DNA of 64,000 bases from an uncultured archaeon (GCA_964640225.1 CAZXFI010000001.1:51507-115506), one strand, 5' to 3'; shown: positions 1 to 14,389, numbered from the stretch's first letter. A program made the numbers and translations. Notes: generated from the letters alone by a model not told the origin.

Positions 1-781
1 TGAAACCGGACAAGCTGTCAATGGGCTTTGTTCTGGCTCCGAGAGTGGAAGATTAACTCCTTCCGAAAGTTGCTATGGCGTGCCTGTGTCTCCAGTAGAA
101 CTTGAAGAAAGCGAGCAGAAAGCCTATAACGAACCCTATCACAAATCCTATTATAATACCTCCCACGTCTGAAAAAACGGGGTTGGAAAAAAACGCGCTG
201 AAATCAAACTCCTGGGCCAAATTATCACCTAATAGTATTGTGTTCCTATATTTAAAAATTTTTATTTGGGCGTTTCCAGAATTATAGCATGGGGGTCGTG
301 AATATAGAGGAACAAATGAGGTTCTATTATTTCAGGCGGGTGGACAACTATTTCGCTTTTGCAGATCCTGACTGCTACGTGAACATAGAGAATTGCACTA
401 AGCGGCTGTAAAATCAGCAATTGTCGATTTTGTCACTACTTTTTAGAGTTAACTATTTAACTTTCAGAAACCAGTTATGTTTACAGTAATGAAAGCAACC
501 ATCCCAGTGACTGCAGAGGGATGACGTTAATTCTGACTTCACCCTGACGTGTTTAGGGATGGCTGGCTTTGCGGGGGGTGATGAGAATGAAGAAGGAAGA
601 AAAACTGCCGATATACGAGGTTTGCGGAAACGACTGCATCGGCATACTGGAGAACGGGAGACTTGTCACTAAGTTCAGGCTGAAGAAAATCAAAAACTTT
701 TTGGGCAAGGAATAATGCGAAAAAGTTTTGGTTTTGCTAGCCCAGAATATTTTTTTATATTCCCGCAATTATAGGTTATTT

Positions 782-3034
782 ATGGTCTGCGAATACGAAC
801 TGGACAACGGCGTTCTCAAGGTCAACTGCCTGGGCTGCATTCACGGCGCAAGCGTGGAGGACTACGACGACTGCATGGCGAGGGTGGTTGACAAGGTAAT
901 AGAAAACAAGGGAGTTGAGAGCATAGTCCTTTCCAAGGAAAGGGAGTACGAATACAACAGGGAGCAGACCCAGATGATAGTTGAGCTGGCCGGAGCCCTC
1001 AAGGAGATAGTGAGAAACAAGGCCCTTCTCAACCCGCTTGAAGAGGGGGAATGCAAAAACGTAACAGACAAAAAAGCGGCCAGCCTCAGGAGGCTTATAC
1101 TCGGGAGGATGAGAAGCGATCCCATAGGAACTTACGTGGCACTGAAAAGAATGATAAGGCACACGAGAATAAGAATAAGCTCCCTCCCGGAAAAAAAGGC
1201 CCGGTGCAACGAGATTTTTCTTGAAAAGGTTCTTATCCCCATAAGGGGCATTTTTGAGGAGCTTGAAATCATAAAGAAGGTAAGGCCCTTCCTGGGAAAA
1301 TACAGGACCGGAGACCGCTCGGTATACAGGGAAATATTCCACCCCACGATAAAGCCCAAGTTCATGAGAACCAAGTACGTTTCCGTGCCCCCGGAAAAAA
1401 GCGAGATAGTGGACAGGTACGAGCTTCCAGGAAAGATACAGGTTGAGATATACAGGAAGCCCGACACGGTGCGCTGCTTTTACCACGTCACCCCCCCGGA
1501 ACTTAGGCTTTCCGAGGACAAGTACACCATCCTGGACGCTGCCATAAGGTACATGACCCAGCACAAGCCCAAGACAACTGAATTCGCCGAGCCCGATAAG
1601 ATGAGGGAGGTCTTCTCCAACATAGGAAGGGACCTGATAGCCGACATAACAGAGCAGATGGGGCTGCGGCTGTCCTCCCAGGACGTGGAGGAGCTCACCT
1701 CAATACTCGTACGATACACCTCGGGGCTGGGCATAATAGAGGTCATACTGGCGGACCAGAAGATCCAGGACGTTTACATAAACTCCCCCGCGGGAGAGCT
1801 CCCCATTTACCTTTACCACTCCGACTTCCAGGAATGCGAGACCAACCTGATTCCCACGCAGGAAGACGCGGAATACTGGGCCACCAGGTTCAGGATTCTT
1901 TCCGGCAGGCCCCTGGACGAGGCGAATCCCGTCCTGGACACGCAGGTTTCCGTTCCCGGAGGAAGCGCGAGGATAGCCGTGATAACCAGGAGCCTGTCAC
2001 CGGAGGGCCTGGGATTTGCCATAAGGAGGCACAGGGACCAACCCTGGACTTACCCGCTTTTCATTCAGCCCAGCGTGGGATATATGAGCCCGCTTTTCGC
2101 GGGATTCATGTCTTTCGTGATTGACGGAGCCCGGACATTCCTGATAGGAGGAACCAGGTCCTCGGGCAAGACCTCCCTGCTGAACGCCTCCCTGCTGGAG
2201 ATAATGAAGAAAAACAGGATAATCACGGTTGAGGACACGCTGGAACTCAGCGTGGAGAGGATGAAACAGCTGGGCTTCAACGTGGAGAGGCTGAAATCCC
2301 GCTCGGTGATAACGCAGGTTGAAACGGAGCTGCCCACCGAGGAAGCCATAAGGACCGCCCTCAGGCTCGGAGACTCTTGCCTTATTCTGGGGGAAGTCAG
2401 GTCAACTGAGGCCAAGGCGCTTTACGAGGCCATGAGAGTCGGAGCGCTGGCCAACACGGTCGCGGGCACCATACACGGGGAAAGCGCCTACGGGGTTTTT
2501 GACAGGGTCGTGAACGACCTTGAGGTGCCGGCCACCTCGTTCAAGGCGACCGATTTGATAGTGATATGCAACATGCTCAGGTCCCCGGACGGGCTTCACA
2601 ACTTCAGGAGGGTCGTGGCCGTCACCGAGGTAAGGAAGCACTGGAAGGACGACCCCGTAAGGGAGAACGGCTTCGTGAACCTCATGGAATACTCGGCCAA
2701 GGATGACGAACTGAAACCCACATCCACCTTCCTTAACGGGGAAAGCATGGTCCTTAACGACATAGCAAGAAAAGTCAGGGAATGGTCCGGGAACTGGGCG
2801 GCTGTATGGGAGAACATAGAGCTGAGGAGCAGGGTAAAGAAGACGATAACGGACACGGCCCTCAGGACGGGAAAGCTTGAGCTCATGGAGGCACCTTTCG
2901 TGGTAAGGTCAAACGAGAAGTTCCACATAATCTCGGACGAGGTCAAGAGGGAACTGGGCTCAATAGACGCTAACGTGGTCTATGAAAAGTGGAGCGGCTG
3001 GCTAAGGGAAGTAATAAAGAAGGAAAGATTCTAG
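782..3034 (+). CDS. Type II/IV secretion-family assembly ATPase (archaeal FlaI/PilB/GspE-VirB11 superfamily); ORF track starts at 728 but ATG 782 is preferred
   Basis: Walker A GGTRSSGKTSLLNA and Walker B-like CLILGEVRSTEA in a roughly 750 aa protein. A polytopic platform gene lies immediately downstream. A TATA-like TTTTTTATATTCC sits about 20 nt upstream of ATG 782, suggesting a leaderless start. Confidence 0.8.
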   Translation: MVCEYELDNGVLKVNCLGCIHGASVEDYDDCMARVVDKVIENKGVESIVLSKEREYEYNREQTQMIVELAGALKEIVRNKALLNPLEEGECKNVTDKKAASLRRLILGRMRSDPIGTYVALKRMIRHTRIRISSLPEKKARCNEIFLEKVLIPIRGIFEELEIIKKVRPFLGKYRTGDRSVYREIFHPTIKPKFMRTKYVSVPPEKSEIVDRYELPGKIQVEIYRKPDTVRCFYHVTPPELRLSEDKYTILDAAIRYMTQHKPKTTEFAEPDKMREVFSNIGRDLIADITEQMGLRLSSQDVEELTSILVRYTSGLGIIEVILADQKIQDVYINSPAGELPIYLYHSDFQECETNLIPTQEDAEYWATRFRILSGRPLDEANPVLDTQVSVPGGSARIAVITRSLSPEGLGFAIRRHRDQPWTYPLFIQPSVGYMSPLFAGFMSFVIDGARTFLIGGTRSSGKTSLLNASLLEIMKKNRIITVEDTLELSVERMKQLGFNVERLKSRSVITQVETELPTEEAIRTALRLGDSCLILGEVRSTEAKALYEAMRVGALANTVAGTIHGESAYGVFDRVVNDLEVPATSFKATDLIVICNMLRSPDGLHNFRRVVAVTEVRKHWKDDPVRENGFVNLMEYSAKDDELKPTSTFLNGESMVLNDIARKVREWSGNWAAVWENIELRSRVKKTITDTALRTGKLELMEAPFVVRSNEKFHIISDEVKRELGSIDANVVYEKWSGWLREVIKKERF

Positions 3035-3066: not shown

Positions 3067-5166
3067 ATGGCCAAGCCCCCGAAGAAGACAGAGGAAGACA
3101 TAAGAAGGGAGGAAATAAAGAAAATTCTCAGCGAGACAAGCCCGGAGTTCAAGCATCTTGCCGGGAGCAGAATAGAGACCCAGAGCAAGGAATACAAGGA
3201 GTTCAAGGAAGAAGAGATTGAAAAAAAGCTTTCTGTTTATGAAAAACTGTGCAACTTATCCGAGAAAATAGGTCTGGAACCGGATAAGGAAATGGCACGG
3301 AAAATGCAGGATGCCATAGATTTTGCGCACCTCAGGATTACACCGAAAGGGGCCTTTTCCTTTGCCATAGTGGCATGCGTCTCAATAATTTTCCTTACCA
3401 TAATCGGAACAATAACCGAGCTGGCCCTGACCGGAACCGCCAACGTAAACAATCTGCTAATATTCTTCGGTATTTCCATAGCCTCCCTGTTCGCGCTTAC
3501 AAAATACCCGGAATTCGTTGCCGACAACTTCAGGATAAAGGCCGCGCAGGAGATAATACTTGCCATAATTTACATGGTAATATACATGAGGACTTCGCCC
3601 CAGATGGAGGGGGCGGTAAGGTTCGCGGCCAAGAACCTCTCCGGCCCGCTGGCCTACGACCTGAGAAAGATACTTTGGGACGTGGAAACCAGAAGGTACG
3701 AGACAATTTACGACGCGATGACGGACTACCTGAAAGGGTGGGAAAAGAACAAGGAATTCATGGAGGCCATACAGCTCATAAGAACTAGCCTGGAGCAGCC
3801 CGAGGCCAAAAGGTACCAGATGCTGGACGAGGCAATAAACATAATACTTCAGGGGACCGAGGAGAAAATGAGACACTATTCGCAGTCTCTGAGGACTCCG
3901 GTGACCATAATATACGCGCTCGGGATAACGCTCCCCGTGCTCGTACTGGTTTTATTTCCCATCATCATGCTCATGCTGAGCGACACCATAAACCCGCTTT
4001 TCCTGGTAGTGGGCTATGACGTGGTGCTGCCGATATTGATATTCGTTATAAGCTACGAGATTCTCATGCGAAGGCCCATAGGATACAGTACGCCCGACAT
4101 AACGCTTCACCCCAAATATTCCCCGCTGGGAAAGCTCAAGCTGGTGCTAATGGGAAAGGAAAAGTTTATGCCGCTATGGCCCATGGGCGCCGCGGTGTCC
4201 GTACCCTTTGTTATTGCCGGGGTGCTGATAATGCTTTCGGACCCGTCTCCCGTGGGCTTCATCAACCTGGTCGGCTCCCTTGTCTTCGTGTGGGGCCTGG
4301 GAATAGGTTTTGCCGTGGTGTTCCTGATTGAAAGCAAGATGAAAATAGGCATCAGGAACCAGATAAAGAGCATACAGGACGAGTTCAGCGAGGCCCTGTT
4401 CCAGCTTGGCAACAGGCTGGCCCTGGGCAACCCCATGGAAAAGGCAATGGAGCAGACCATAGAAAAGGCTTCAAACCTGAAAATATCGGACCTTTTCAGG
4501 AAGGCCCTCCGCAACATAAAGAGAAGCAGCCTCCCGCTTGAGGCGGCGCTGTTTGACAGGAAAGTGGGGGCAATATGGGAATACCCATCCAAGCTCGTGA
4601 TAAACGTCATGAAAATACTCTTTGAGGCCACGAAAAAAGGCGTGAAGAACGCGGCACTGAGCGCCATATCAATATCCCGCTACGTCAAGCAGATACACAA
4701 CATAGAGGAAAGCCTGAAAGAGATGCTCAGCGAATCCACGGCAAGCATGAGGGTTCTGGGAATGTTCATCGCGCCCCTGATAGCCGGGGTAACTGTAACG
4801 ATGACAGCCATAATGATGATGATATTCAAGACTCTGGGAGAGCTCATGGGAACGCTTGAGATTACGGAAGGCAACACGGTCGGGGGAATGGGACTCCAGA
4901 ACCTCATGATAGGCTCCTGGGGAACAGTAGGAAACATACTGACAATAGGCGTTTTCCAGATAATCGTGGGTGTGTATATGATTGAAATCGGGTATCTGCT
5001 GGCCTACCTGGTCTCGGGAATAGACAACGGCCAGGGAGACCTTATTGGTAGGAGGGAACTGGCCGGGTACAACATTTTAATAGGACTGGCTGTATATACT
5101 CTTACAGTGCTTGTCACGTATTTCATATTCGCTCCCATGGTGGGAGTGCTCGTGGGCACAATGTAG
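3067..5166 (+). CDS. Polytopic membrane platform protein of archaeal type IV pilus/archaellum-like systems (FlaJ/TadC/GspF-like)
   Basis: 699 aa with multiple hydrophobic helices in N- and C-terminal blocks separated by a cytoplasmic domain, as in FlaJ/TadC. It is translationally coupled downstream of the secretion ATPase. Confidence 0.65.
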   Translation: MAKPPKKTEEDIRREEIKKILSETSPEFKHLAGSRIETQSKEYKEFKEEEIEKKLSVYEKLCNLSEKIGLEPDKEMARKMQDAIDFAHLRITPKGAFSFAIVACVSIIFLTIIGTITELALTGTANVNNLLIFFGISIASLFALTKYPEFVADNFRIKAAQEIILAIIYMVIYMRTSPQMEGAVRFAAKNLSGPLAYDLRKILWDVETRRYETIYDAMTDYLKGWEKNKEFMEAIQLIRTSLEQPEAKRYQMLDEAINIILQGTEEKMRHYSQSLRTPVTIIYALGITLPVLVLVLFPIIMLMLSDTINPLFLVVGYDVVLPILIFVISYEILMRRPIGYSTPDITLHPKYSPLGKLKLVLMGKEKFMPLWPMGAAVSVPFVIAGVLIMLSDPSPVGFINLVGSLVFVWGLGIGFAVVFLIESKMKIGIRNQIKSIQDEFSEALFQLGNRLALGNPMEKAMEQTIEKASNLKISDLFRKALRNIKRSSLPLEAALFDRKVGAIWEYPSKLVINVMKILFEATKKGVKNAALSAISISRYVKQIHNIEESLKEMLSESTASMRVLGMFIAPLIAGVTVTMTAIMMMIFKTLGELMGTLEITEGNTVGGMGLQNLMIGSWGTVGNILTIGVFQIIVGVYMIEIGYLLAYLVSGIDNGQGDLIGRRELAGYNILIGLAVYTLTVLVTYFIFAPMVGVLVGTM

Positions 5167-5174
5167 GTGTAAAA

Positions 5175-5288
5175 ATGAAAGGAATCTTGGGTTACGGGCT
5201 TTGGCAGACCATAGTGGCCGTCACGATAGGCCTTGCACTTGTGCTTTTCATAATAGCAATGTTCTACAACGTGTGGGGGGCGATATAA
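5175..5288 (+). CDS. Mini single-pass membrane peptide (37 aa), pilin-like N-terminus MKG-ILGYGLWQTIVAV
   Basis: ATG preceded by GGTGTAAAAATG. Sequence is MKGILGYGLWQTIVAVTIGLALVLFIIAMFYNVWGAI. Its stop overlaps the next start (TAATG). Confidence 0.45.
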   Translation: MKGILGYGLWQTIVAVTIGLALVLFIIAMFYNVWGAI

Positions 5289-5416
5289 TGGAGATGAGAA
5301 TCGTGATAACAATAGCGCTTTTCCTGGTGCTGTTCGTGGTGGCTCTCTTCATACTTGCGCCCAGCCTTTCGGCTTTTTTGGGGCATATCTCTGATATGGG
5401 TTTCACTCCTGAATAA
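5288..5416 (+). CDS. Mini single-pass membrane peptide (42 aa)
   Basis: MEMRIVITIALFLVLFVVALFILAPSLSAFLGHISDMGFTPE. Start overlaps the previous stop. Lies in frame within ORF 5111..5416. Confidence 0.4.
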   Translation: MEMRIVITIALFLVLFVVALFILAPSLSAFLGHISDMGFTPE

Positions 5417-5448
5417 TTTTATATTTAAAACAGGATATAATATTATTC

Positions 5449-5646
5449 ATGGACAAGAAGATGGCCGAAATAATATTTGTTATACTTGTTTTCCTGGTAG
5501 GCTTCATATTTTTCATAGCAATGTTCGGTGAAACTTTGGGAATAGGTACTATTTTCACAAAAATGTGGTGCTACGGGTACTGCGCCATGAAGATAACCAA
5601 TCCGTTGTGGGGCGGCGCAATTCCGGGAGGTTTTTGCGGATGCTGA
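5449..5646 (+). CDS. Small membrane peptide (65 aa) with C-terminal Cys/Gly-rich tail
   Basis: MDKKMAEIIFVILVFLVGFIFFIAMF followed by CYGYC and GGFCGC. ORF-track entry. Confidence 0.45.
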   Translation: MDKKMAEIIFVILVFLVGFIFFIAMFGETLGIGTIFTKMWCYGYCAMKITNPLWGGAIPGGFCGC

Positions 5647-5798
5647 AGGGGGTGTCGCACCTGATGTGGTTCGTGCTTGCCTTCGTGGTTATAGTGATAC
5701 TGATAGCAGTCAGCGTGCTTATACTCAATCAGGGGCAAGGCTATGCCCTGGGTGGCATAGAAGACATGATAAACAGCGTCAGTGACATGATAGGGTGA
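5640..5798 (+). CDS. Mini single-pass membrane peptide (52 aa), class III-like MLKG-VSHLMWFVLAF
   Basis: ATG overlaps the previous gene's stop (GGATGCTGA). KG followed by a roughly 25-residue hydrophobic helix. Confidence 0.45.
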   Translation: MLKGVSHLMWFVLAFVVIVILIAVSVLILNQGQGYALGGIEDMINSVSDMIG

Positions 5799-5802
5799 TT
5801 AT

Positions 5803-5970
5803 TTGAAAAAGGGATTTTCCGGCTTGCCTTCAATGGTTTACATAATAATAATACTGGTAGTGGCAGTCGCGGTGTTCTTTTTCATCTACATGAACGTGGA
5901 GGGCAACGCGGACAGCATATTTGATGCTATGAGGGACATTTTAAAGGGTATCCCTCCCGACTTGGGGTGA
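5803..5970 (+). CDS. Mini single-pass membrane peptide; probable TTG start (KKG-FSGLPSMVYIIIILVVAV), alternative ATG at 5833
   Basis: In-frame TTG AAA AAG GGA TTT begins 5 nt after the previous stop. K-K-G then a hydrophobic helix. Ends GIPPDLG. Confidence 0.35.
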   Translation: MKKGFSGLPSMVYIIIILVVAVAVFFFIYMNVEGNADSIFDAMRDILKGIPPDLG

Positions 5971-5998
5971 CTTTGTGGGATATCTAACGTGGCAGAGC

Positions 5999-6118
5999 AT
6001 GACAGGAAAAATATGGACAATCCTGCTGTTCGTCATCATCCTTATAATAATGTTCCTGATAATAACCGCCGTGGTGCCGGAAATGCAGCTGATAGCGGGA
6101 GTTTTTGAGGAGATGTGA
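5999..6118 (+). CDS. Mini single-pass membrane peptide (39 aa)
   Basis: MTGKIWTILLFVIILIIMFLIITAVVPEMQLIAGVFEEM. Stop lies 3 nt before the next gene's ATG (6122). Confidence 0.4.
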   Translation: MTGKIWTILLFVIILIIMFLIITAVVPEMQLIAGVFEEM

Positions 6119-6121
6119 AAA

Positions 6122-6904
6122 ATGGCGAAAGGCTCAATAGACAAAATACTTTCAATATTCATAGCAGCGGTCGTGATTCTTTTGATAGTTGCCGCTGCCT
6201 ACAACGTCATAAAAGGATTGGGAGCCCACATGGCCGAGTCTATATCAACCGGAAGTTCGGCTGAAGACATAGCAGACGCGGTGAACGACATCAACGAATG
6301 CATAGAGGAAAACGGCGAAGGCAGATGCACCGAGGAAATAACCCTGGATATAAGCGTGCCACAGGGGCTCGAAGACAGCGGAATGCCTTACGTAGGTGCG
6401 GACCCCCTGTGGGTAATTTACCACGACAAGTGCCTTTCAAACGATGATGATACGGGCTTGCCGGGAGAAAACGACGACTCCTGTGAAAACATAGGGGATG
6501 TGGAACCCCTGGTGAAGGAAAGTGACTGCGAGTGCCACAGTCTGTGGGACAGCGGAAAATTCGCGCCCAGGTGCGAGAACGACTTTTGCTGGGGAATGGT
6601 GGAAAACCAGGCTCCGGGAAGGTCGCAGGTAAACCCGAGAGCCCTGGAAAGGCTCCAGTCTTTCTACATAATAGACCCGTGCTACGCCAGAATCAAAGTG
6701 CGCGAGAACCCGGCCAATCCCGGGAAGATAGAGATATGCTTTGAAGAGCCTCTTGAACCTCCCGTGCCCGGCTACGCCAACTGGTGCTGCGCTGATCCAG
6801 ACAAGGTGGACTGTGCCTTGCAACCGCCCATGGGAAAAGAGTGGCCGTTTACTGCTAACGGGGTGTGGAATGGTCTGCAAACAGGCACCTGCCATAAATG
6901 CTAG
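6122..6904 (+). CDS. Secreted Cys-rich protein with archaeal class III (prepilin-like) signal peptide
   Basis: N-terminus MAKG-SIDKILSIFIAAVVILLIVAAAY (K-G-S then a hydrophobic helix). The remainder is hydrophilic with about 20 Cys. Confidence 0.55.
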   Translation: MAKGSIDKILSIFIAAVVILLIVAAAYNVIKGLGAHMAESISTGSSAEDIADAVNDINECIEENGEGRCTEEITLDISVPQGLEDSGMPYVGADPLWVIYHDKCLSNDDDTGLPGENDDSCENIGDVEPLVKESDCECHSLWDSGKFAPRCENDFCWGMVENQAPGRSQVNPRALERLQSFYIIDPCYARIKVRENPANPGKIEICFEEPLEPPVPGYANWCCADPDKVDCALQPPMGKEWPFTANGVWNGLQTGTCHKC

Positions 6905-6912
6905 TGATTTGA

Positions 6913-7353
6913 ATGCCCTCAACTGAATCCCTGATGGAGATGTTCGCGACTCTGATACTTTTCGCGCTGATAGCCATGCTACTTCTCACCGTTTTCGGCA
7001 AAACCGTGGGAGGAGGGGAAGTTCCCATGGGCCAGGCTTACCCGGTGACTCAGAAAATCGTGTTCAGGATTAACACAATGTCGGCGAGTCTGCAGAACGA
7101 GACAGCGATACTTAAGATAGACCCCTTCCAGTACAACATAACTTTTGACGTTAACAACAACTACGTGGAAAGCAAAGTCAAGTATTTCGGCGATACAAAG
7201 TACGGACTTTTCCTTTTTCCGGACATAAGCCTAATTGCCCCGGACTACATAGACTGTCCCCACGGCGAATGCCTGCCCAAGAACCTTGTCATAGAAAAGA
7301 AAGTTTATGAAGACGGTCCTGTTGAGATAACGGTCTGGGAGGAGATAATATGA
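6913..7353 (+). CDS. N-terminally membrane-anchored or pilin-like secreted protein
   Basis: N-terminal helix MFATLILFALIAMLLLTVFGKTV followed by a soluble domain containing a CPHGEC motif. Lies inside the pilin-like gene array. Confidence 0.45.
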   Translation: MPSTESLMEMFATLILFALIAMLLLTVFGKTVGGGEVPMGQAYPVTQKIVFRINTMSASLQNETAILKIDPFQYNITFDVNNNYVESKVKYFGDTKYGLFLFPDISLIAPDYIDCPHGECLPKNLVIEKKVYEDGPVEITVWEEII

Positions 7354-8132
7354 AAGGCTCCCTTTCAACAGCAGTAACTGCCGGGCTTATAATACTTTCC
7401 ATGATTTTCATTGTAATCTTGCTTTTTAGCACGGCCGAATTGACAGCGGAATCATACGCCAGCGCCACTCTTCAGATAAGCAAGTTTTCCGTGTTCCACA
7501 AGATAATGACCTCAAGGAACTGCGTGAGCACTGGGGAAACAGGCATACTCAACAAGACTCTTCTGGATGACGCAAACAACGGGGGAGAACTTGAATGCGC
7601 ATACCTGCCAGACTGCGCCCATTACGTGAGAGTGGACAACCTGAACAACGGGGAAAGCTGGGACTGGAAATTCGGCTACAAGGGCGACGGGGACTGGCAG
7701 GACTACATGGAGACTTACGTCTCTATAATGGACGGCAGCGACGTCATACCCGGGTTCGTGTCAATGAAGATAAACTGCAAGGACCCCGTGATAAACGAGG
7801 AGGAAGACAACTTCATAATATGCCTGACCGCGGCAGCGGAGAGGGCGTGGATAACGGGGGAACTGGAAAAGAAATGCAACATGGGGAGCGAGATTATGGC
7901 AGACAAACTAATAGACGTGGACTTTGACCCCGACAAGATATGCCTCAAGGACAGCGGAGGTGTGATAGAATGCAGAAACTTTTACCAGGCGGTTGCCGAC
8001 GACGTGACAAAGCAAAAAGGTAGCCAGAAAGACATGTGCACCGTGAAATATGTTAAAGTTGGTACAGAACTGATAATAGACGAGTTTGAATGCGAAAAAG
8101 GTAAATTTAACGGACTGGACGGAGTTGATTGA
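7350..8132 (+). CDS. Secreted Cys-rich protein with class III signal peptide (MKG-SLSTAVTAGLIILSMIF)
   Basis: K-G-S motif then a hydrophobic helix. A Cys-rich hydrophilic domain follows. The 4-nt start/stop overlap with the upstream gene indicates translational coupling. Confidence 0.55.
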   Translation: MKGSLSTAVTAGLIILSMIFIVILLFSTAELTAESYASATLQISKFSVFHKIMTSRNCVSTGETGILNKTLLDDANNGGELECAYLPDCAHYVRVDNLNNGESWDWKFGYKGDGDWQDYMETYVSIMDGSDVIPGFVSMKINCKDPVINEEEDNFIICLTAAAERAWITGELEKKCNMGSEIMADKLIDVDFDPDKICLKDSGGVIECRNFYQAVADDVTKQKGSQKDMCTVKYVKVGTELIIDEFECEKGKFNGLDGVD

Positions 8133-8580
8133 AATTAGGAAAGGTTTCGTGATACAGGTATTCACTCTGTTTTTCATAATAGGCCTTACGATGGGCATTT
8201 TCATAGCAGGCATCCTTATAGCTTCGGGCCACCTGAAGCTAATACTGGCCGTTGAAACCAATTTTGAAAGACCCTCCATGACGCAGATTTCCGCCAATTC
8301 TTTCATGAGAATGGAAAACAGCTACCCGGATCAGGGAAACGAGATGAGAAACATTATGTCCAACTTCAGGAACAGCGGCGACGACGCCGTTCTCAGGCAG
8401 GCCATAACAGATTCCATGGATGAGATGTTTGACGTGGTGGGGGACAGCAGCAACGTGATGGTGAAGGTGGGAGACCTTTACTTCAACAAGGGGCTTATGG
8501 GAGACCATGACACGGGCTTCGGGCTGGTTGCTTACCCTGAAGGCCAGGCGGAAAAAATACAGGTGAGGGTTTACAAATGA
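8086..8580 (+). CDS. Pilin-like secreted protein; the real start is probably TTG around 8128-8131, giving MIEIRKG-FVIQVFTLFFIIGL
   Basis: ATG 8086 overlaps the upstream gene by 47 nt. The in-frame sequence TTG ATT GAA ATT AGG AAA GGT TTC gives a canonical R-K-G-F class III motif just before the hydrophobic helix. Confidence 0.45.
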   Translation: MNAKKVNLTDWTELIEIRKGFVIQVFTLFFIIGLTMGIFIAGILIASGHLKLILAVETNFERPSMTQISANSFMRMENSYPDQGNEMRNIMSNFRNSGDDAVLRQAITDSMDEMFDVVGDSSNVMVKVGDLYFNKGLMGDHDTGFGLVAYPEGQAEKIQVRVYK

Positions 8581-10079
8581 CTGGTAGAAAAGGCATTGCC
8601 ATAGGAATAGCCCTTTTGATAGGATTTTTCTTGGCAATGGGAGGCATTCTCCTGGCAATACTCGGCTTCACGCTGGGCCTGACCCAGGCAATAACCATGG
8701 AAACTGCATACGACGCCAAAACCCTCATAGAGGACAAGCTCCATTTTGACTCGGAAAGGCACTACCTTGAGAACGGGCTCTGGGTCGCCGGGGCTTACGC
8801 CGCCTTCAAGAACGGGGAAAACGGGGGCATATACAACGACGGGTGGGACACCTGCTCCGGCTACGTTTGCTGGAGGGACCACGACGACCTGAAAATACCA
8901 CCGGAGAATCAGGTAACTGACGAGGTTTTTGAAAGAACCGACGACACCTTTCAGGATTATTTTTCAAACACGGAGTACACCGTGATGGAAGAAACTCCTT
9001 TGGGGGAGCCGGATATAACCCCGCTGGAAATGGAATACGACAGGCAGGAATTCAGTTTTTCCTACAGGATAGCCGAGCTGAACCTTTCCGGCGATTCATA
9101 CGACCAGTCGCACGAAATGAGGGAGAGACGCGTCTGGATTAACACCACAATTCCCATCAGGTACCTCAGCCTTTACGATGACGCCTCCGGCTTTGCCACG
9201 AACTCGCGCACAAGGCTCAACGACAAGGTAATAGACGCGCTGGACGACGTGACCGTGTGCAAGGGCCAGGGCCAGCTCACGCAGAGCGCCGCGCAGAACA
9301 AGATTCAGGACGCTCTTGACGGAATAGCGGGAGACGAAACAAACGGATTTGAGTGGGAACTGCAGCTGCTTCAGATAGACGACTTTGAGGAAGTACAGGG
9401 CCCGCCCAACCTGAGGTACAGGATAGTTTTCACGGTTCTCGTTACCGTGAGGGACAAGGAGGACGGAAGGAGGGTTCCGAACACCGACAGCGTGGAGAAG
9501 CTGGGAATTAGGTTTGCTTTGAAAGATGAGATAGTCTTTGATAGGGTTGTTTACCAGATATGCGACTGCGGGGTGGAGTGCACGGGCCAGTCCAAATGCC
9601 AGGGCGAGACCATACCCGCGGACACATGCGACGGTAGCGTCAGGGTGATATGGAGGGTTGAAGGGACCACCACGAGCGAGGCCCCGGGAGACTGCTCCTC
9701 CGGAGACGACTGCTACTGCGAGAAGAGGATTGAATGCGCTCCGGCACCTTGCTGCGTGGATGTTTGCTGCGCCGCGGGCGAGTCGTGCTGCGGAGGCACC
9801 ACCTGCTGTGGCAATGCCTGTTGTGGAGGGACGTGCTGTGGAGCAGGGGACTTCTGCTGTGACGACAAGTGCTGCAGCGGCGATTCCTGCTGCGGTACCA
9901 CGTGCTGCTCAAGCACCTGCTGCGACGGGAACTCGTGCTGCACGGACACGTGCATCGGCGGCTCCTGTGTGGACTGCGGAGGCTGCAGTTGCGCACCAAT
10001 GGGCCCGTGCCAGTTCGGTACATGCCCGCTTGCATGCTGCCCCGGCTGCATAGGAATATGCTGTGCCCCTGGGCCTTAA
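8577..10079 (+). CDS. Large secreted pilin-like protein (class III signal MTGRKG-IAIGIALLIGFF) with an extreme C-terminal CC-dipeptide repeat domain
   Basis: 500 aa. The C-terminal roughly 110 residues read CCVDVCCAAGESCCGGTTCCGNACCGGTCCGAGDFCCDDKCCSGDSCCGTTCCSSTCCDGNSCC. The DNA shows TGCTGC recurring about every 21 nt. Confidence 0.6.
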   Translation: MTGRKGIAIGIALLIGFFLAMGGILLAILGFTLGLTQAITMETAYDAKTLIEDKLHFDSERHYLENGLWVAGAYAAFKNGENGGIYNDGWDTCSGYVCWRDHDDLKIPPENQVTDEVFERTDDTFQDYFSNTEYTVMEETPLGEPDITPLEMEYDRQEFSFSYRIAELNLSGDSYDQSHEMRERRVWINTTIPIRYLSLYDDASGFATNSRTRLNDKVIDALDDVTVCKGQGQLTQSAAQNKIQDALDGIAGDETNGFEWELQLLQIDDFEEVQGPPNLRYRIVFTVLVTVRDKEDGRRVPNTDSVEKLGIRFALKDEIVFDRVVYQICDCGVECTGQSKCQGETIPADTCDGSVRVIWRVEGTTTSEAPGDCSSGDDCYCEKRIECAPAPCCVDVCCAAGESCCGGTTCCGNACCGGTCCGAGDFCCDDKCCSGDSCCGTTCCSSTCCDGNSCCTDTCIGGSCVDCGGCSCAPMGPCQFGTCPLACCPGCIGICCAPGP

Positions 10080-10095
10080 GAGGTGAAAAGGGAAA

Positions 10096-10683
10096 ATGAA
10101 AGGAGACATATCCCCGTGGGTCTTGATAACGATAATAATAGTCTTCATAGCCCTGGGAATCACGCTTGTCGCGCTTTACCAGGCCAGGCTCCAGGAGGGA
10201 GTAGATGAGGCCATAACGGAAACGGACATACCGGTTGCTGGTGACGATGAACTTTCAACTTGCACGGACAGCGACGGGGGCAGAAATTATTTTACCGAGG
10301 GCAGTGTTACCACGTACACGGAAACTTATGACGACGAATGTGACTCGGGGCAGGCCACGGAACACCTGTGCCTGACGGTCATGGACGAGGTAGACACGGT
10401 TACCTATGTTTGCCCCAACGGCTGCGACGGGAACGCATGCAGCGACACACCCCATGTACTAGACGAATGCGAGGACAGTGACGGGGGCAAAAACTACTTT
10501 GCCCAAGGCACGGTGACTCTGGGCCCGGAAATCTACCAGGACGAGTGCAAGCCTATAGGAGACCAGAGTGTCCTAGTGAAGGAATACTTCTGTGAAAAGG
10601 AGGAGGACAACCCGGTTGAAGTGAAGTATACCATTTACCAATGTCCTATTCTTTGTGAAGGAGGGGCTTGCTTAGAGGGTTGA
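10096..10683 (+). CDS. Secreted protein with class III signal (MKG-DISPWVLITIIIVFIAL) and two tandem Cys-containing repeats of about 60 aa with a C-[TE]-DSDGG-[RK]-NYF motif
   Basis: The repeats CTDSDGGRNYFTEG...CPNGCDGNAC and CEDSDGGKNYFAQG...CPILCEGGAC are visible in the translation. Confidence 0.55.
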   Translation: MKGDISPWVLITIIIVFIALGITLVALYQARLQEGVDEAITETDIPVAGDDELSTCTDSDGGRNYFTEGSVTTYTETYDDECDSGQATEHLCLTVMDEVDTVTYVCPNGCDGNACSDTPHVLDECEDSDGGKNYFAQGTVTLGPEIYQDECKPIGDQSVLVKEYFCEKEEDNPVEVKYTIYQCPILCEGGACLEG

Positions 10684-10687
10684 TAAA

Positions 10688-11068
10688 ATGAGTAAGGGAG
10701 TTTCATTCTGGGTCATGATAACCATAGTTGCCGTTCTTATACTGCTGGTGGTTATAGCTTCAGGACTGGTCAACCTCAACCCCCAGGGAAGGATAGATGA
10801 CACAATGGGAGAGGTTGAAATCAAAGGGGCATGCGACCATTTTCAATGCCCGCAGGGCTCTTGTTGCAAGGAAGGTGGGGGAACAGACTACCAGACCAGG
10901 CAGTGCATAAAGAACGACACGGAAAGCTTAAGAGACACCTGTACTGACGCCACCGGTGAGAGGCTTGGCTCAACCTACGTAAAGGAATATTATTGCGATG
11001 GGAATATCATAAGGGCAGACATACACTACTGCGGCACGAACAGTTGCATGAACGGAGCCTGCACCTGA
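10688..11068 (+). CDS. Small secreted Cys-rich protein with class III signal (MSKG-VSFWVMITIVAVLIL), related to the C-terminal repeat of the upstream gene
   Basis: KEYYCDGN...YCGTNSCMNGACT resembles KEYFCEKEED...YQCPILCEGGACLEG of 10096..10683. Confidence 0.5.
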   Translation: MSKGVSFWVMITIVAVLILLVVIASGLVNLNPQGRIDDTMGEVEIKGACDHFQCPQGSCCKEGGGTDYQTRQCIKNDTESLRDTCTDATGERLGSTYVKEYYCDGNIIRADIHYCGTNSCMNGACT

Positions 11069-11104
11069 TTGAGCAAGAATTTAAATGATTAAGATGAAAT
11101 CTTA

Positions 11105-12553
11105 TTGTGGTTAATGATGGCAAGCGTGATTTTCCGGATAATCGCCATAATAGCCGCTCTTATTGTTCTCAGCATAGCCATAATTTTCATGCTCGGCCTT
11201 CCGATGGAAGAATCGGCCGAGGTGCTTCGGCAGGAGCAGATTGACCAGCAGGTGGACAAATTGTGCCCCTCCTCCAGGCAGTCGCCTACCATGGTTTTTC
11301 TTCAGCTAAACGGCGACTGCGGGCGGTGTGAAAACCCCGGTCCGCCCCCCTGCAACCCGTTCTGCAACGACGCCTCAGCCTGGTACCAAGTCTGCCAAGA
11401 TGAAAGGCCCGACGGAGAGGTAACTGTGGCAGATTATTGGCAATGTGACGCTCCGGAGGGGGGTAGTTGTATGGTTACCAAGATATCATACTACCAGTGG
11501 GTATACAACGGATGCCGTTTATCAAGAATCAATCCCATACTTGGTTTCAACGATTACAGGATTTACAAGGGCACGGACCCCACGGGCGACCTGGACTTTG
11601 AAGAATGGGACAACTGCAGCGAAGGCTATGGAATGGGCTCCAGGTGGTGGGATTTATTCTGTGCCGATGACGAATGCAAATACATCTCAAGCGTGAGTCC
11701 AATCCTGGACAATAAAGGAGTTTACGGGGAGGGACAAGACTTGTATTTCTCTATAAATTTTGTCACTGCTATAAAAGACCCGTACGACAGACTGCTTAAT
11801 CCCGAATACGGCATCTGCGAGGGAACTGTCTGCAAAAGGCATGAAGAGGAGTTCCACCACTATGAACTGAAAGTAGCGGGAAGGTACTGCTGCCCTGAGG
11901 GCACGGAGTGGAACACGGACTTCCAGGCATGCTGCGGGGAGGATGACTGCGCGGACGCCGACTGCAGGGAAATCGGGGGCACCTGGCTCTACGGTGAATG
12001 CTGGTTCATGGGAAGCGGCGGGGAAAGCTGCAGCGAGGTTTGCGAGGACAAAAACGCGGTGTGCAAGAATCCGGATGACTGGGCGAGCGTGCCGAAAGAC
12101 TGCGCGCTTCACGAGGAGGTTTTCAAGGACATGGGACTTTATCCCGTGCCGTTTAACTGCACTTTTTGCCTTCAGAACATGCTGCCTCCGCCAGAATGGT
12201 ATTCCCCGTATTCAGGCTCCCTGACAAAATGCTATTACAAAAACAACGAGGCCCCGCCACCCTTTGACGATTACATGTGCGACGCGGTGGCTCCGGGAGG
12301 CAAGCCCAGAATCTGCGCCTGCGAGCCCCTTTGCCCCGGGCCGGACCTGAACGGCCGCGTTCCCGCTCCCAGTTATTTTGCCGGGACGTGCCAGGGCGGG
12401 TGCCACGGCGATTATTACTACCACACGGGCTATGGAAGGTGTTACTGGGACTACCTGGGGCACGCGGAAAACGACCCGTGGGGCGAATCATGCATATGGA
12501 GACATTCGGCGGACTGCGCCGAGGCCCAGTGCACGGCCGCGGGCTGCATCTGA
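11105..12553 (+). CDS. Large N-terminally anchored extracellular Cys-rich protein (paralog A)
   Basis: N-terminal helix IFRIIAIIAALIVLSIAIIFMLGL. About 40 Cys. Shares blocks with 12567..13976 (CCPEGTEWNTDFQACCGEDDC, GECWFMGSGGESCSEVCED, CALHEE, RICACEPLCPG). Confidence 0.55.
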   Translation: MWLMMASVIFRIIAIIAALIVLSIAIIFMLGLPMEESAEVLRQEQIDQQVDKLCPSSRQSPTMVFLQLNGDCGRCENPGPPPCNPFCNDASAWYQVCQDERPDGEVTVADYWQCDAPEGGSCMVTKISYYQWVYNGCRLSRINPILGFNDYRIYKGTDPTGDLDFEEWDNCSEGYGMGSRWWDLFCADDECKYISSVSPILDNKGVYGEGQDLYFSINFVTAIKDPYDRLLNPEYGICEGTVCKRHEEEFHHYELKVAGRYCCPEGTEWNTDFQACCGEDDCADADCREIGGTWLYGECWFMGSGGESCSEVCEDKNAVCKNPDDWASVPKDCALHEEVFKDMGLYPVPFNCTFCLQNMLPPPEWYSPYSGSLTKCYYKNNEAPPPFDDYMCDAVAPGGKPRICACEPLCPGPDLNGRVPAPSYFAGTCQGGCHGDYYYHTGYGRCYWDYLGHAENDPWGESCIWRHSADCAEAQCTAAGCI

Positions 12554-12566
12554 TGCGGTGAAAAAG

Positions 12567-13976
12567 ATGAGCAAGGAAAATTTTTTCGGTGTGTTGATAA
12601 CAATCGTGATAATGCTTTTGGTTCTCGTGATAATAACCGGAAGCCTGTCCAACGTGGACTCCCTGGGGAAGACAGACGAGGCCATGGAGCAGTCCATGGG
12701 GCTTGCCGACACCTTCAAGGTGCCCTACACCCTGTGCGGCGACGGAAGGATGTCCGGGGGCTACCAGAGGACCATTGACACCGCGGGCGAGGCTACCGTC
12801 TTTTTCAGGGAACTGAGCGGGACTTTTGACTGCTCCCTGGAAGGCACCGGCGAGGGGGAGTGCATAATATACGGGCTTTACAGGAGAGAGTGGTGCGCAG
12901 ACGGCGGGTTCCTTTGCGGGAACGGCAACGGGGAGAACATAGGCACCTACCAGTTCACCGTGGACTCAGGGGAACCGGAGCTTGCCCTTGACTTCACCCC
13001 GGAATGCGTGGACAACGTCAATGTCCAGGGCTGCTGCGTAAATCCGAAAAAGGGAGACGGAAGGGACTGGCTCTGCGACTGGTGGATTTACGAGTGGACT
13101 TATTACGGAGACAAGGGATTCCTCAACATAACCGTGGGAAACGGGGAAAGCGTGGATGTCTGGAGCAGGTTCGCCGACAAGTGGGAAGGAGGCGCGGTGG
13201 AGGACCCGCACAACTGCAGCTACGGGGGCGACATGTACCAGTTCCACAAGGAAAGCTACAAGTACAAGAATGGGGAGCTGGCCGTCAGATACGTAAAATG
13301 CTGTCCCAATGGTTACACGTGGAACGATAATTATAAAACATGCTGCTATGACGAGGCCTGCACCAACTACCTGTGCAGATACCCGGCCTTTTTCATGTTC
13401 GGGACCTGCTGGATGGTTAGCGAACCCGGGGAAAGCTGCGAGCAGGCCTGCCTGAGAACGGGAAAGACCTGCAGCCTTGAAGCGCTTGAGAACGCGATTT
13501 CTGAAGGCCTGGAAGACAACTGCGACCTGCACGCGGAGGCCGGCTACGCATGCGCAAACTGCAACGAGGCCACGGGATCGGAAAACACGCTTGCCCCGTA
13601 CTTTGACCCCCCCGGCGACTGCTACTATTACAGCGAGGCCGAGGCCGCGGCAAACCCGTTTGACTGCGGGACATCGGACCCGGGCCTGAACAGGATATGC
13701 CCCTGCAAGCTCACCGGAAAAACCGGTGAAGATTATAAATGCGACCATCTGGTCCACGAGCCCGGAACCTGCATGGACGAGGACGGGGGGCTTGTCTGGG
13801 ACGTGGCTGCCTGCGTGATAAACGACAGTTATTCGTGGAGGGACCAGTGCCATGACCCCGGCACGGGAGCCAGCGTGCCGGAGAGCAATACTTTAAGAGA
13901 GCATTTCTGCGGCTCCGGTGACGTTATAGGAACACAGCTCCATTCCTGTGCGTGCAGAGACGGGACCTGCGTCTAG
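12567..13976 (+). CDS. Large N-terminally anchored extracellular Cys-rich protein (paralog B); start taken at ATG 12567 rather than the 12378 track start
   Basis: MSKENFFGVLITIVIMLLVLVIITGSL helix. Shares blocks with paralog A (CCPNGYTWNDNYKTCCYDEAC, GTCWMVSEPGESCEQACLRTGKTC, CDLHAE, RICPCKLTG). The 12378 extension overlaps the upstream gene. Confidence 0.55.
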   Translation: MSKENFFGVLITIVIMLLVLVIITGSLSNVDSLGKTDEAMEQSMGLADTFKVPYTLCGDGRMSGGYQRTIDTAGEATVFFRELSGTFDCSLEGTGEGECIIYGLYRREWCADGGFLCGNGNGENIGTYQFTVDSGEPELALDFTPECVDNVNVQGCCVNPKKGDGRDWLCDWWIYEWTYYGDKGFLNITVGNGESVDVWSRFADKWEGGAVEDPHNCSYGGDMYQFHKESYKYKNGELAVRYVKCCPNGYTWNDNYKTCCYDEACTNYLCRYPAFFMFGTCWMVSEPGESCEQACLRTGKTCSLEALENAISEGLEDNCDLHAEAGYACANCNEATGSENTLAPYFDPPGDCYYYSEAEAAANPFDCGTSDPGLNRICPCKLTGKTGEDYKCDHLVHEPGTCMDEDGGLVWDVAACVINDSYSWRDQCHDPGTGASVPESNTLREHFCGSGDVIGTQLHSCACRDGTCV

Positions 13977-14017
13977 CCTGAAATTTATTTAAGCAAGTAC
14001 AATAATTAAGGGATAAC

Positions 14018-14389
14018 ATGAAAGGACTTTCCATTTCAACCAACGTCCTGGTGGCGCTGGCCATAGCGCTCATAGTGCTCCTGGCACTGGTTTCCATGCT
14101 CATGGGAATAGTCCCGGGAACCTCGGAGGCCCTGGGCTGCGAGGCCGACTTCCGGGTGCAGTGCAACAGGTTCATAGCCGCGGGAGGCTGCAAGGAGACT
14201 TCGGGGATGAGCATACTGGACGGATGTATCGGAGTTACGGATAACTGTCCCGGTGCTGAGGGCTACGACGAAGACTGCAGGTTCGTGAAATGCAGCACGG
14301 CAGACTGCGCCCTGGGAACGCTAATTGGAAGCGAAATAGAGGCGGCGTGCTGCGGAACCGAGACCACGACCACCACCGTGGGTCCCTGA
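14018..14389 (+). CDS. Small secreted Cys-rich protein with class III signal (MKG-LSISTNVLVALAIALIVLLAL) and C-terminal Thr run
   Basis: K-G-L motif plus a hydrophobic helix. 11 Cys. Ends TETTTTTVGP. Confidence 0.5.
   Translation: MKGLSISTNVLVALAIALIVLLALVSMLMGIVPGTSEALGCEADFRVQCNRFIAAGGCKETSGMSILDGCIGVTDNCPGAEGYDEDCRFVKCSTADCALGTLIGSEIEAACCGTETTTTTVGP

What the first reader, a model, noticed from the sequence alone, without database searches (positions are those of the whole stretch)
5175..6118. Tandem array of six mini-ORFs encoding single-pass membrane peptides immediately downstream of the platform gene
Six consecutive ORFs of 37-65 aa have overlapping or near-abutting stops and starts: TAATG at 5286-5290, GGATGCTGA at 5638-5646, and a TTG 5 nt after a stop. 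Each encodes essentially one hydrophobic helix. Three begin with K-G motifs (MKG-IL, MLKG-VS, KKG-FS), like prepilins that lack any globular head. Such minimal pilin-like peptides are not annotated by standard pipelines. They could be core or priming subunits of the filament or accessory membrane components.
Basis: seen in the sequence. Interest (0 to 1): 0.6.

Follow-up and report, generated by a model that had tools for sequence, protein, structure and literature searches.

The report
Conserved mini pilin-like peptide gene cassette
Six tiny genes that follow the membrane platform gene of an archaeal (DPANN, Aenigmatarchaeota-like) type IV pilus locus are real, conserved and under purifying selection; they encode single-helix peptides, three of which carry a conserved prepilin-type cleavage motif, so they resemble the known "headless" pilins, but no function has been shown.

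Summary
Window 5175-6118 holds six same-strand ORFs of 37, 42, 65, 52, 55 and 47 aa, each with one hydrophobic helix. Their stops and starts overlap or lie within a few bases, except for a 32-nt gap before p3. All six recur in the same order in at least nine related loci, with non-synonymous change far below synonymous change. They are genes, not chance ORFs or a frameshifted gene.

They sit in a type IV filament locus: ATPase, platform, the six peptides, then about ten larger proteins with K-G plus hydrophobic N-termini. In p1, p4 and p5 the [K/R]-G motif never varies among orthologs. p2 and p3 lack it here, but some orthologs keep it. AlphaFold predicts p4 as one continuous helix, like Tad/Flp pilins.

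No HMM links any peptide to Flp, EpdE or another family. A conserved TATA-like box splits the array into p1-p2, expressed with the motor genes, and p3-p6, a module also found in more distant loci.

Mini-ORF arrays follow this platform type in 53 of 63 loci. Best reading: pilin-derived, helix-only subunits or assembly partners. A membrane-accessory role is not excluded. This is a new variant of a known kind, of moderate interest.

The parts
754..761 (+). TATA-like box TTTATATT, 28 nt before the probable ATPase start (ATG 782); candidate operon promoter P1
   Evidence: for the motif position; gene callers start the ATPase at window 782 (750 aa). TTTAWATW is enriched in intergenic DNA: 22 of 27 hits in the window.
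782..3034 (+). Secretion/pilus-assembly ATPase (the ORF opens at 728; the likely start is 782)
   Evidence: Pfam T2SSE, E=7e-17. Best PDB sequence matches are A. fulgidus GspE 2oap (4.5e-27), FlaI (1.5e-17) and CpaF (4.3e-17).
3067..5166 (+). Polytopic membrane platform protein (TadC/FlaJ-like, 699 aa, about 9 TM segments)
   Evidence: Weak Pfam T2SSF match, E=0.038. TM count. 79 homologous loci found.
5175..5288 (+). p1, 37 aa, MKG|ILGYGL...; K-G does not vary in 7 orthologs; it would be 34 aa after cleavage and is entirely hydrophobic
   Evidence: The AGGTG motif lies 5 nt before the ATG.
5288..5416 (+). p2, 42 aa, MEMRIV...; no K-G here (the L011 ortholog has MKG); conserved Pro after the helix
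   Evidence: The p2 start overlaps the p1 stop (TAATG).
5417..5426 (+). TTTTATATTT, a conserved TATA-like box directly after the p2 stop and 22 nt before the p3 ATG; candidate internal promoter P2 giving a leaderless p3 mRNA
   Evidence: Identical 10-mer at the same position in W, L004, L002, L007, L008, L011, L084 and L085/86, although synonymous sites are saturated. Spacing is similar to P1 (31 nt from TTTATATT to the ATG, against 28 nt at P1). A TTTATAAA box sits before the module in L088.
5449..5646 (+). p3, 65 aa; TM helix plus a second helix; four invariant Cys (CxxxC...CxC at the C-terminus); no K-G here, but four of ten family members have M[KD][KS]G|T
   Evidence: AF2 mean pLDDT 69; helices 3-29, 33-50 and a short one at 52-55.
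5640..5798 (+). p4, 52 aa, MLKG|VSHLMWF...; [K/R]-G is present in every relative apart from one 5'-truncated gene call; predicted to be one continuous helix
   Evidence: AF2 pLDDT 89.5, helix 2-51. The 7-nt ATGCTGA overlap with p3 is conserved. GGAGG lies upstream.
5803..5970 (+). p5, 55 aa, TTG start, MKKG|FSG...; K-G does not vary; amphipathic acidic C-terminal tail
5975..6118 (+). p6, 47 aa, GTG start, conserved N-terminal MG[YFL]L[TS]W...G motif before the helix; no K/R at position -2
6122..14389 (+). About ten larger genes. Most have an N-terminal [K/R]-G followed by a hydrophobic stretch (6122 MAKG|S, 7350 MKG|S, 8577 MTGRKG|I, 10096 MKG|D, 10688 MSKG|V, 14018 MKG|L). They are presumed pilins or adhesins of the same system; several are Cys-rich
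   Evidence: No Pfam or NCBIfam hits.

Best explanation
The six ORFs are a conserved cassette of minimal, helix-only, pilin-derived membrane peptides that belong to a DPANN-type archaeal type IV filament machinery. What the sequence shows: the genes are translationally coupled through overlapping or abutting stops and starts with SD-like motifs, and they sit between the platform gene and a run of larger proteins with class III signal-like N-termini. What is inferred, step by step: (1) A TATA box at 754 drives ATPase, platform, p1 and p2. A second conserved TATA box at 5417 drives a leaderless p3 with coupled p4, p5, p6 and the larger pilin-like genes. (2) All six insert N-in/C-out. (3) A class III (prepilin) signal peptidase cuts after the conserved Gly of p1 (MKG|), p4 (MLKG|) and p5 (MKKG|), leaving peptides of 34, 48 and 51 residues. 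p2, p3 and p6 are pilin-derived relatives that have lost, or never had, the canonical site. (4) The ATPase and platform handle these helices as filament-core or assembly-initiating subunits, together with the larger pilin-like proteins. The fixed order and tight coupling of p3-p6 point to a stoichiometric subcomplex rather than one abundant major pilin. p1-p2, which are co-expressed with the motor, may stay at the platform.
For: Real genes under purifying selection, with conserved synteny. Locus context of T2SSE ATPase plus T2SSF-like platform plus many K-G N-termini. K-G does not vary in p1 (7 sequences), in p5, or in the p4 family, including all 14 hits from an exhaustive search of 1.84 billion proteins. 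Orthologs of p2 (L011) and p3 (four of ten members) carry MKG or MKKG, so those families also derive from class III signal proteins. Charge asymmetry fits N-in/C-out, and p4-p6 have amphipathic acidic tails. AF2 predicts p4 as a single continuous helix at pLDDT 89.5. The predicted mature sizes of p4 and p5 (48 and 51 aa) fall in the published 40-60 residue range of headless Tad pilins (PMC10710030). EpdE of Methanococcus is likewise headless (bioRxiv 10.64898/2026.04.22.720090). A conserved TATA-like 10-mer precedes p3. The p3-p4-p5-p6 order recurs in more distant loci, where it is detached from the platform gene. Mini-ORF arrays follow this platform type in 53 of 63 loci.
Against: No experimental evidence of cleavage or filament incorporation. 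No prepilin peptidase gene was found among ten candidate membrane/unannotated ORFs of the window scanned against Pfam (not every ORF was scanned) or in the multi-TM ORFs of the flanks of related loci. No HMM or structural link to Flp_Fap, Class_IIIsignal, Pilin_N or any PDB pilin. Three of the six lack a canonical site in this window. In the loci with 36-40% platform identity, the four mini-peptides almost never have K-G and lie upstream of the internal promoter, which looks more like machine components. Mature p1 would have no polar surface at all, which is hard to reconcile with an exposed filament subunit. Paralogy among the six could not be shown above reversed-sequence controls.
Confidence: 0.55

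Rival explanations
1. The peptides are integral-membrane accessory subunits of the assembly platform, forming a collar or stabilising ring around the TadC-like protein. They are never extracted into a filament, and the K-G motifs serve topology or docking only.
For: p1 and p2 are co-transcribed and translationally coupled with the platform and lie upstream of the internal TATA box. In the loci with 36-40% platform identity, all four mini-peptides lie upstream of the TATA box and lack K-G. Mature p1 is fully hydrophobic. p6 has a strongly conserved N-terminal cytoplasmic motif (MGxLTW), which is unusual for a discarded leader. The fixed set of distinct families in fixed order suggests a stoichiometric complex.
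Against: The conserved [K/R]-G directly before the helix in p1, p4 and p5, across sequences that are otherwise about 25-60% identical, is the signature of class III signal peptidase substrates. p3-p6 share a transcription unit with the larger pilin-like proteins. p4 and p5 have the size and single-helix shape of known headless pilins (PMC10710030).
Confidence: 0.3
2. The peptides are exported cargo or membrane-active peptides (bacteriocin-, holin- or toxin-like) that are merely encoded next to the secretion machinery.
For: They are small hydrophobic peptides. p3 has four conserved Cys, as in some disulfide-stabilised peptides.
Against: No precursor-processing, immunity or transporter genes typical of such systems were seen. 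The order is stable and selection is purifying across divergent lineages, rather than the rapid turnover of conflict systems. The N-terminal K-G motif plus helix is pilin-like, not a double-glycine or Sec leader.
Confidence: 0.04
3. These are not separate genes: they are chance ORFs or the remains of one longer frameshifted gene.
For: None beyond the small size. Gene callers disagree on some starts.
Against: Six hydrophobic-helix ORFs against at most one in 2000 shuffles. Each ORF keeps its own start, stop and frame in at least nine divergent loci, with pN well below pS. The 7-nt p3/p4 overlap is conserved.
Confidence: 0.01

Closest known systems
Flp/Tad (type IVc) pilins of bacteria, e.g. Caulobacter PilA (PDB 8U1K)
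   Same: Tiny prepilins with a short leader ending in Gly. The mature protein is 40-60 residues with no globular domain and forms a single continuous helix (PMC10710030). p4 and p5 would be 48 and 51 aa, and p4 is predicted to be one helix. Both are encoded beside an archaeal-type ATPase and TadC-like platform. p1 has a G-x3-4-[EGS][YH]G[LA] stretch that recalls the flp motif.
   Different: No match to Pfam Flp_Fap or to the PDB Tad pilin. The G/xxxxEY register is not kept. Here there are six distinct families in fixed order, half of them without a cleavage motif, rather than one or a few flp paralogs. The host is archaeal (DPANN).
EpdE and other small (~70 aa) major pilins of Methanococcus (arCOG06620; Pfam Class_IIIsignal/DUF361)
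   Same: An archaeal class III signal pilin that lacks the C-terminal globular domain. Its predicted mature mass is about 6.4 kDa (PMC4390842; PMC4858521; bioRxiv 10.64898/2026.04.22.720090).
   Different: EpdE-type genes are usually stand-alone and carry Q at +1 with the QxSxExxxL motif. None of the six has this motif or hits the HMM. No N-glycosylation sequons are visible in the p4 or p5 tails on reading the sequence.
BasABC of Saccharolobus solfataricus (bindosome assembly system)
   Same: [quoted passage not shown] No filament has been seen for them (PMC2910488).
   Different: A different lineage, and the system serves sugar-binding proteins. Homology was not tested here because no Bas sequences were at hand.
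Minor-pilin priming sets (GspH-I-J-K, FimU-PilVWX, TadE/TadF)
   Same: An operon-encoded set of several distinct pilin-like proteins in fixed order, presumed to be stoichiometric. This fits the conserved p3-p4-p5-p6 module.
   Different: Known minor pilins have globular domains that form the tip complex. These peptides have essentially none. This comparison rests on general knowledge of these systems and was not tested here.
'Dark matter' pilins of DPANN type IV pili loci (Makarova, Wolf & Koonin 2019)
   Same: A general statement that unannotated, signal-peptide-bearing proteins next to the ATPase and TadC in DPANN genomes are diverse pilins (PMC6393860).
   Different: In the text passages I read, that paper does not describe mini-ORF arrays, the mix of members with and without K-G, the internal promoter, or the conserved p3-p6 module. 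I could not see its figure.

Membership tests
Archaeal class III (type IV prepilin-like) signal peptide proteins | Short N-terminal leader ending in [K/R]-[G/A] at positions -2/-1 | tested here: met
   Met for p1 (MKG), p4 (MLKG) and p5 (MKKG); conserved in orthologs. Not met in the window for p2 (MEMR), p3 (MDKKMAE) or p6 (…MTG, no K/R at -2). Some p2 and p3 orthologs do have it.
Archaeal class III (type IV prepilin-like) signal peptide proteins | Uncharged hydrophobic stretch of about 20 residues directly after the cleavage site | tested here: met
   Uncharged stretches of 20-22 aa in all six.
Archaeal class III (type IV prepilin-like) signal peptide proteins | Cleavage by a PibD/FlaK/EppA-type aspartic peptidase | not testable with these tools
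   No Peptidase_A24-like gene among ten candidate ORFs scanned in the window or in the flanks of related loci. The rest of the genome is not available.
Archaeal class III (type IV prepilin-like) signal peptide proteins | Encoded with a secretion ATPase and a TadC/FlaJ-type platform | tested here: met
   Synteny in 79 loci.
Flp/Tad pilins (Pfam PF04964 Flp_Fap) | Match to the family HMM, with the flp motif G/xxxxEY | tested here: not met
   No Flp_Fap hit at E<=10 for any of the six or for 20 'first peptides'. No PDB Tad pilin hit. p1 has only a shifted [EGS][YH]G[LA] stretch.
Flp/Tad pilins (Pfam PF04964 Flp_Fap) | Mature length 40-60 residues, no globular domain, single continuous helix | tested here: met
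   p4 would be 48 aa and p5 51 aa after the predicted cut. AF2 predicts helix 2-51 for p4 at pLDDT 89.5. p1 (34 aa) is shorter than the range. p3 has an extra Cys-pinned helix.
EpdE-type pilins (Pfam PF04021 Class_IIIsignal / DUF361) | Q at +1 with the QxSxExxxL motif, and a match to the HMM | tested here: not met
   The +1 residues are I, V and F. No HMM hit.
Minor-pilin priming complex (GspHIJK-like) | Pilin fold with a globular domain that forms the tip complex | tested here: not met
   There is no room for a globular domain (37-65 aa). The AF2 models are helices only. Only the operon logic is similar.

The most novel reading that the evidence does not exclude
The p3-p4-p5-p6 module (with p1-p2) builds a heteromeric, helix-only filament core or initiation complex from several distinct headless subunits. 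Some of these (p2, p3, p6 here, and all four peptides in the loci with 36-40% platform identity) are made without a cleavable leader, so they would be prepilin-peptidase-independent pilin-like subunits. Mature p1, at 34 residues, would be shorter than the 40-60 residue range published for headless Tad pilins. Because similar arrays follow the platform gene in contigs that probably come from Nanohaloarchaeota (including one named NAR1_11), this could be a general feature of the DPANN cell-to-host attachment apparatus.
Probability: 0.2. Interest if true: 0.7.

Novelty: new variant of a known kind. Interest (0 to 1): 0.45.

Why it matters
DPANN archaea are ultrasmall and mostly host-dependent, and their type IV filament loci are among the few candidate attachment devices they encode. 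Yet almost every gene in these loci beyond the ATPase is unannotated. This work shows that a fixed cassette of mini single-helix proteins is conserved next to the platform gene, and that such arrays are common in this platform family (53 of 63 loci). Three of the six carry a conserved prepilin cleavage motif. That gives concrete, testable candidates for the filament core or assembly initiator. It also flags a systematic annotation problem: TTG and GTG starts and overlapping starts lead gene callers to drop these genes or to truncate away the diagnostic motif. The repeated loss of the K-G motif within otherwise conserved families raises the question of whether pilin-like helices can work without peptidase processing.

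Tried and rejected
- Pfam and NCBIfam scans of the six peptides, of 20 'first peptides' from other loci and of the larger downstream proteins gave only sub-threshold hydrophobic noise.
- PDB sequence searches with profiles of p1, p3 and p4/p5 gave nothing relevant.
- A Foldseek search of the p4 model against the PDB gave no matches, as expected for a single helix.
- Profile-profile tests among p1-p6, and between these and the four peptide families of the 36-40% loci, did not clearly exceed reversed-sequence controls. Best scores were 24 forward and 22 reversed, so common ancestry is unproven.
- The idea that p1 is a true Flp pilin was rejected as a membership claim. The motif register differs and there is no HMM hit.
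- A search for a prepilin peptidase among ten candidate ORFs of the window and in multi-TM ORFs of 80 loci found none. The candidates were MFS, SpoIIM, glycosyltransferase or unannotated proteins.
- An exact look-up of the platform protein in the contig index failed, although the peptides were found.
- The 808-aa member of one peptide's 90% cluster is an unrelated enzyme, so this is a clustering artefact.
- The sigma-70 promoter scan does not apply to an archaeon and was not used.

Full report
**Observation**

Window 5175-6118 contains six consecutive plus-strand ORFs:
- p1, 5175-5288, 37 aa
- p2, 5288-5416, 42 aa
- p3, 5449-5646, 65 aa
- p4, 5640-5798, 52 aa
- p5, 5803-5970, TTG start, 55 aa
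- p6, 5975-6118, GTG start, 47 aa

Shine-Dalgarno-like motifs precede p1, p2, p4, p5 and p6. Each product has one uncharged stretch of 20-22 residues. The N-side is neutral or positive and the C-side is mostly acidic, which fits an N-in/C-out orientation.

The region has six ORFs of at least 37 aa with a hydrophobic helix. None of 2000 dinucleotide shuffles gave more than one.

**Are they genes?**

The platform protein (3067-5166) retrieved three genome loci and 76 metagenome loci. More loci came from peptide look-ups.

Where the platform is 55-76% identical (L001-L011, L081-L086; two of them are labelled Candidatus Aenigmatarchaeota MAGs), the same peptide families recur in the same order, five or six of them wherever the contig reaches far enough, each with its own starts and stops. 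The 7-nt ATGCTGA overlap of p3 and p4 is kept.

Synonymous sites are saturated while non-synonymous change is low:
- Window vs L004: pS 0.64-0.89, pN 0.21-0.38.
- L002 vs L007: dN/dS 0.05-0.37 for all six.

Ortholog N-termini support the upstream starts of p4 (MLK(x)KG), p5 (M[KR]KG; TTG in the window) and p6 (MG[YFL]LTW; GTG in the window). The region is therefore six genes, not a frameshifted gene and not noise.

Gene callers did predict all six on this contig, and NCBI lists orthologs as hypothetical proteins. However, p4 and p5 were called from later ATGs that delete the K-G motif. In several related contigs p1, p2 or p3 were not called at all.

**Context**

- Upstream lie a T2SSE-family ATPase and a weakly T2SSF-like nine-TM platform. 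The ATPase's best PDB matches are archaeal GspE, FlaI and CpaF.
- Downstream, to about 14.4 kb, lie roughly ten larger proteins. Most start with M-x-[K/R]-G followed by a hydrophobic stretch.
- Beyond that are housekeeping genes such as Alba and proteasome, so this is a chromosomal type IV filament locus.
- None of these proteins matches Pfam or NCBIfam. That fits the published view that DPANN pilus loci are 'dark matter' whose signal-peptide proteins are probably diverse pilins (PMC6393860).

**The six peptides**

p1, p4 and p5 carry the class III signal signature: a short leader ending in K-G, then the hydrophobic helix.
- The K-G does not vary in seven p1 orthologs.
- It does not vary in p5 orthologs.
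- It is kept in every p4 relative apart from one 5'-truncated gene call. This includes the 14 hits (51-64 aa, E <= 0.001) from an exhaustive HMMER search of 1.84 billion representatives, even the most divergent, and all 14 read [K/R]-G|[V/A/E/D].
- A word-indexed search of 5.8 billion proteins found only 18 p4/p5 relatives, 10 p3 relatives and 4 p1 relatives. These are narrow, fast-evolving families.

AlphaFold2 predicts p4 as one continuous helix (residues 2-51, pLDDT 89.5). This is the shape of Tad/Flp pilins, which are 40-60 residues long and lack a globular domain (PMC10710030).

p2 and p3 lack K-G in the window. An L011 ortholog of p2 begins MKG, and four of ten p3 family members begin M[KD][KS]G|T. 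In p3 the window lineage shows a deletion of about 7-8 residues at exactly that place. These two families therefore also look pilin-derived.

p3 has four invariant Cys (CxxxC...CxC at the C-terminus) and a predicted second helix. This could be a tiny head pinned by disulfides or by a metal; that is an inference.

p6 has a strongly conserved N-terminal MGxLTW...G motif but no basic residue at position -2.

Mature p1 would be 34 residues with no charged residue. Its [EGS][YH]G[LA] stretch recalls the flp motif but is out of register. It gives no Flp_Fap or PDB hit.

**Operon substructure**

The only real gap in the array is 32 nt between p2 and p3. It begins with TTTTATATTT, which is identical in W, L004, L002, L007, L008, L011, L084 and L085/86 even though synonymous sites are saturated. 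The 10-mer ends 22 nt before the p3 ATG, and p3 has no SD motif.

The same TTTATATT lies 28 nt before the probable ATPase start at 782. TTTAWATW is strongly intergenic in this window, with 22 of 27 hits.

I infer an archaeal TATA box that gives a leaderless p3 transcript. That yields two units: ATPase-platform-p1-p2, and p3-p4-p5-p6 with the larger pilin-like genes.

In line with this, the p3-p4-p5-p6 order recurs in more distant loci (L087, L088). There it is detached from the platform gene, and in L088 it is again preceded by a TATA-like box.

**Wider pattern**

Of 63 related loci with at least 400 nt after the platform gene, 53 have at least one mini single-helix ORF there and 23 have four or more.
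- Loci with 36-40% platform identity usually have four peptides. These almost never carry K-G, and they are followed by a TTTATATA box about 23 nt before the first large MKG/MRG protein.
- Loci with 31-33% platform identity come from hypersaline samples and include a contig named NAR1_11. They are probably Nanohaloarchaeota, inferred from names only. They have two peptides, both with [K/R]-G, and the second has two Cys.
- Profile-profile comparison could not show homology between these sets and p1-p6 above reversed controls, nor paralogy among p1-p6.

**Interpretation**

The best-supported reading is that these are minimal pilin-derived helices handled by the type IV machinery.
- p1, p4 and p5 are probable class III signal peptidase substrates.
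- p3-p6 form a fixed, translationally coupled module. That looks more like a stoichiometric filament-core or initiation subcomplex than a single major pilin.
- p1-p2 are co-expressed with the motor.

The main rival is that some or all of them are membrane-resident accessory subunits of the platform. In its favour are the fully hydrophobic p1, the conserved cytoplasmic motif of p6, and the K-G-less peptides upstream of the promoter in the 36-40% loci.

No prepilin peptidase gene was found among the ten window ORFs scanned or in the flanks. Nothing here shows cleavage or assembly.

**Comparison and novelty**

Headless pilins are known: Flp/Tad in bacteria, and EpdE and about 70-aa pilins in methanococci (PMC10710030, PMC4390842, PMC4858521, bioRxiv 10.64898/2026.04.22.720090). 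Small class III proteins beside an ATPase and platform are also known, as in BasABC (PMC2910488).

What differs here:
- There is no sequence membership in those families.
- The cassette is a conserved set of two plus four distinct mini-proteins.
- Half of them lack the cleavage motif, with repeated gain or loss of the motif within families.
- An internal leaderless promoter divides the array.
- One member would be only 34 residues when mature.

I rate this a new variant of a known kind, of moderate interest. It is valuable mainly as a set of testable candidates for the DPANN filament core and as an annotation caveat.

Noticed in passing
window 728-790: The ATPase ORF opens at TTG 728, but a TTTATATT box at 754-761 lies 28 nt before ATG 782, the start chosen by gene callers (750 aa). 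The ATPase is probably also translated from a leaderless mRNA.
   Followed up: partly
L013:190-2409, L015:823-2495, L045:398-2526, L063:545-2241 and others: In loci with 31-46% platform identity (L012-L078), three or four tandem paralogous genes lie upstream of the ATPase. They encode membrane proteins of about 160-200 aa with about five TM segments and a shared 'LPWLLTFAIVYGVLSQ'-like motif. No Pfam match. This looks like an uncharacterised conserved component of these systems. The window starts too close to the ATPase to show whether it has them.
   Followed up: partly
window 8577-10079: This 500-aa K-G protein ends in an extremely Cys-rich repeat region (…CCAAGESCCGGTTCCGNACCGGTCC…). Many neighbouring pilin-like proteins are also Cys-rich.
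   Followed up: no
window 6913-7353 vs L002:8256-8678: The 146-aa protein lacks a K-G motif in the window (MPSTESLMEMF…), whereas its L002 ortholog starts MVKMKKG|A. The same within-family gain or loss of the cleavage motif is seen for p2 and p3.
   Followed up: partly
window 5640-5970; L081, L084, L085: Gene callers truncate p4 and p5 to 44 and 45 aa, which removes the K-G motif. In other contigs they extend p4 into the p3 frame or skip p1, p2 or p3. Public protein sets are therefore unreliable for these mini-genes.
   Followed up: yes
window 11105-12553 and 12378-13976: The two mechanical ORFs overlap by 176 nt. Gene callers start the second at window 12567 (469 aa), which removes the overlap.
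   Followed up: partly
L087:3312-4746: In a distant relative, two genes sit between the platform and the p3-p6-like module: a 276-aa protein with a Peptidase_M64 hit and an N-terminal hydrophobic segment, and a 199-aa protein.
   Followed up: no
protein P0007: An 808-aa methionine-synthase-like protein is listed in the same 90% cluster as a 55-aa p4 ortholog. This is a clustering artefact of the protein collection, not biology.
   Followed up: yes
window 53-220 (minus strand): A 55-aa ORF with a hydrophobic helix and GFVIGFVIGF repeats lies upstream of the locus on the opposite strand. Its conservation was not checked.
   Followed up: no
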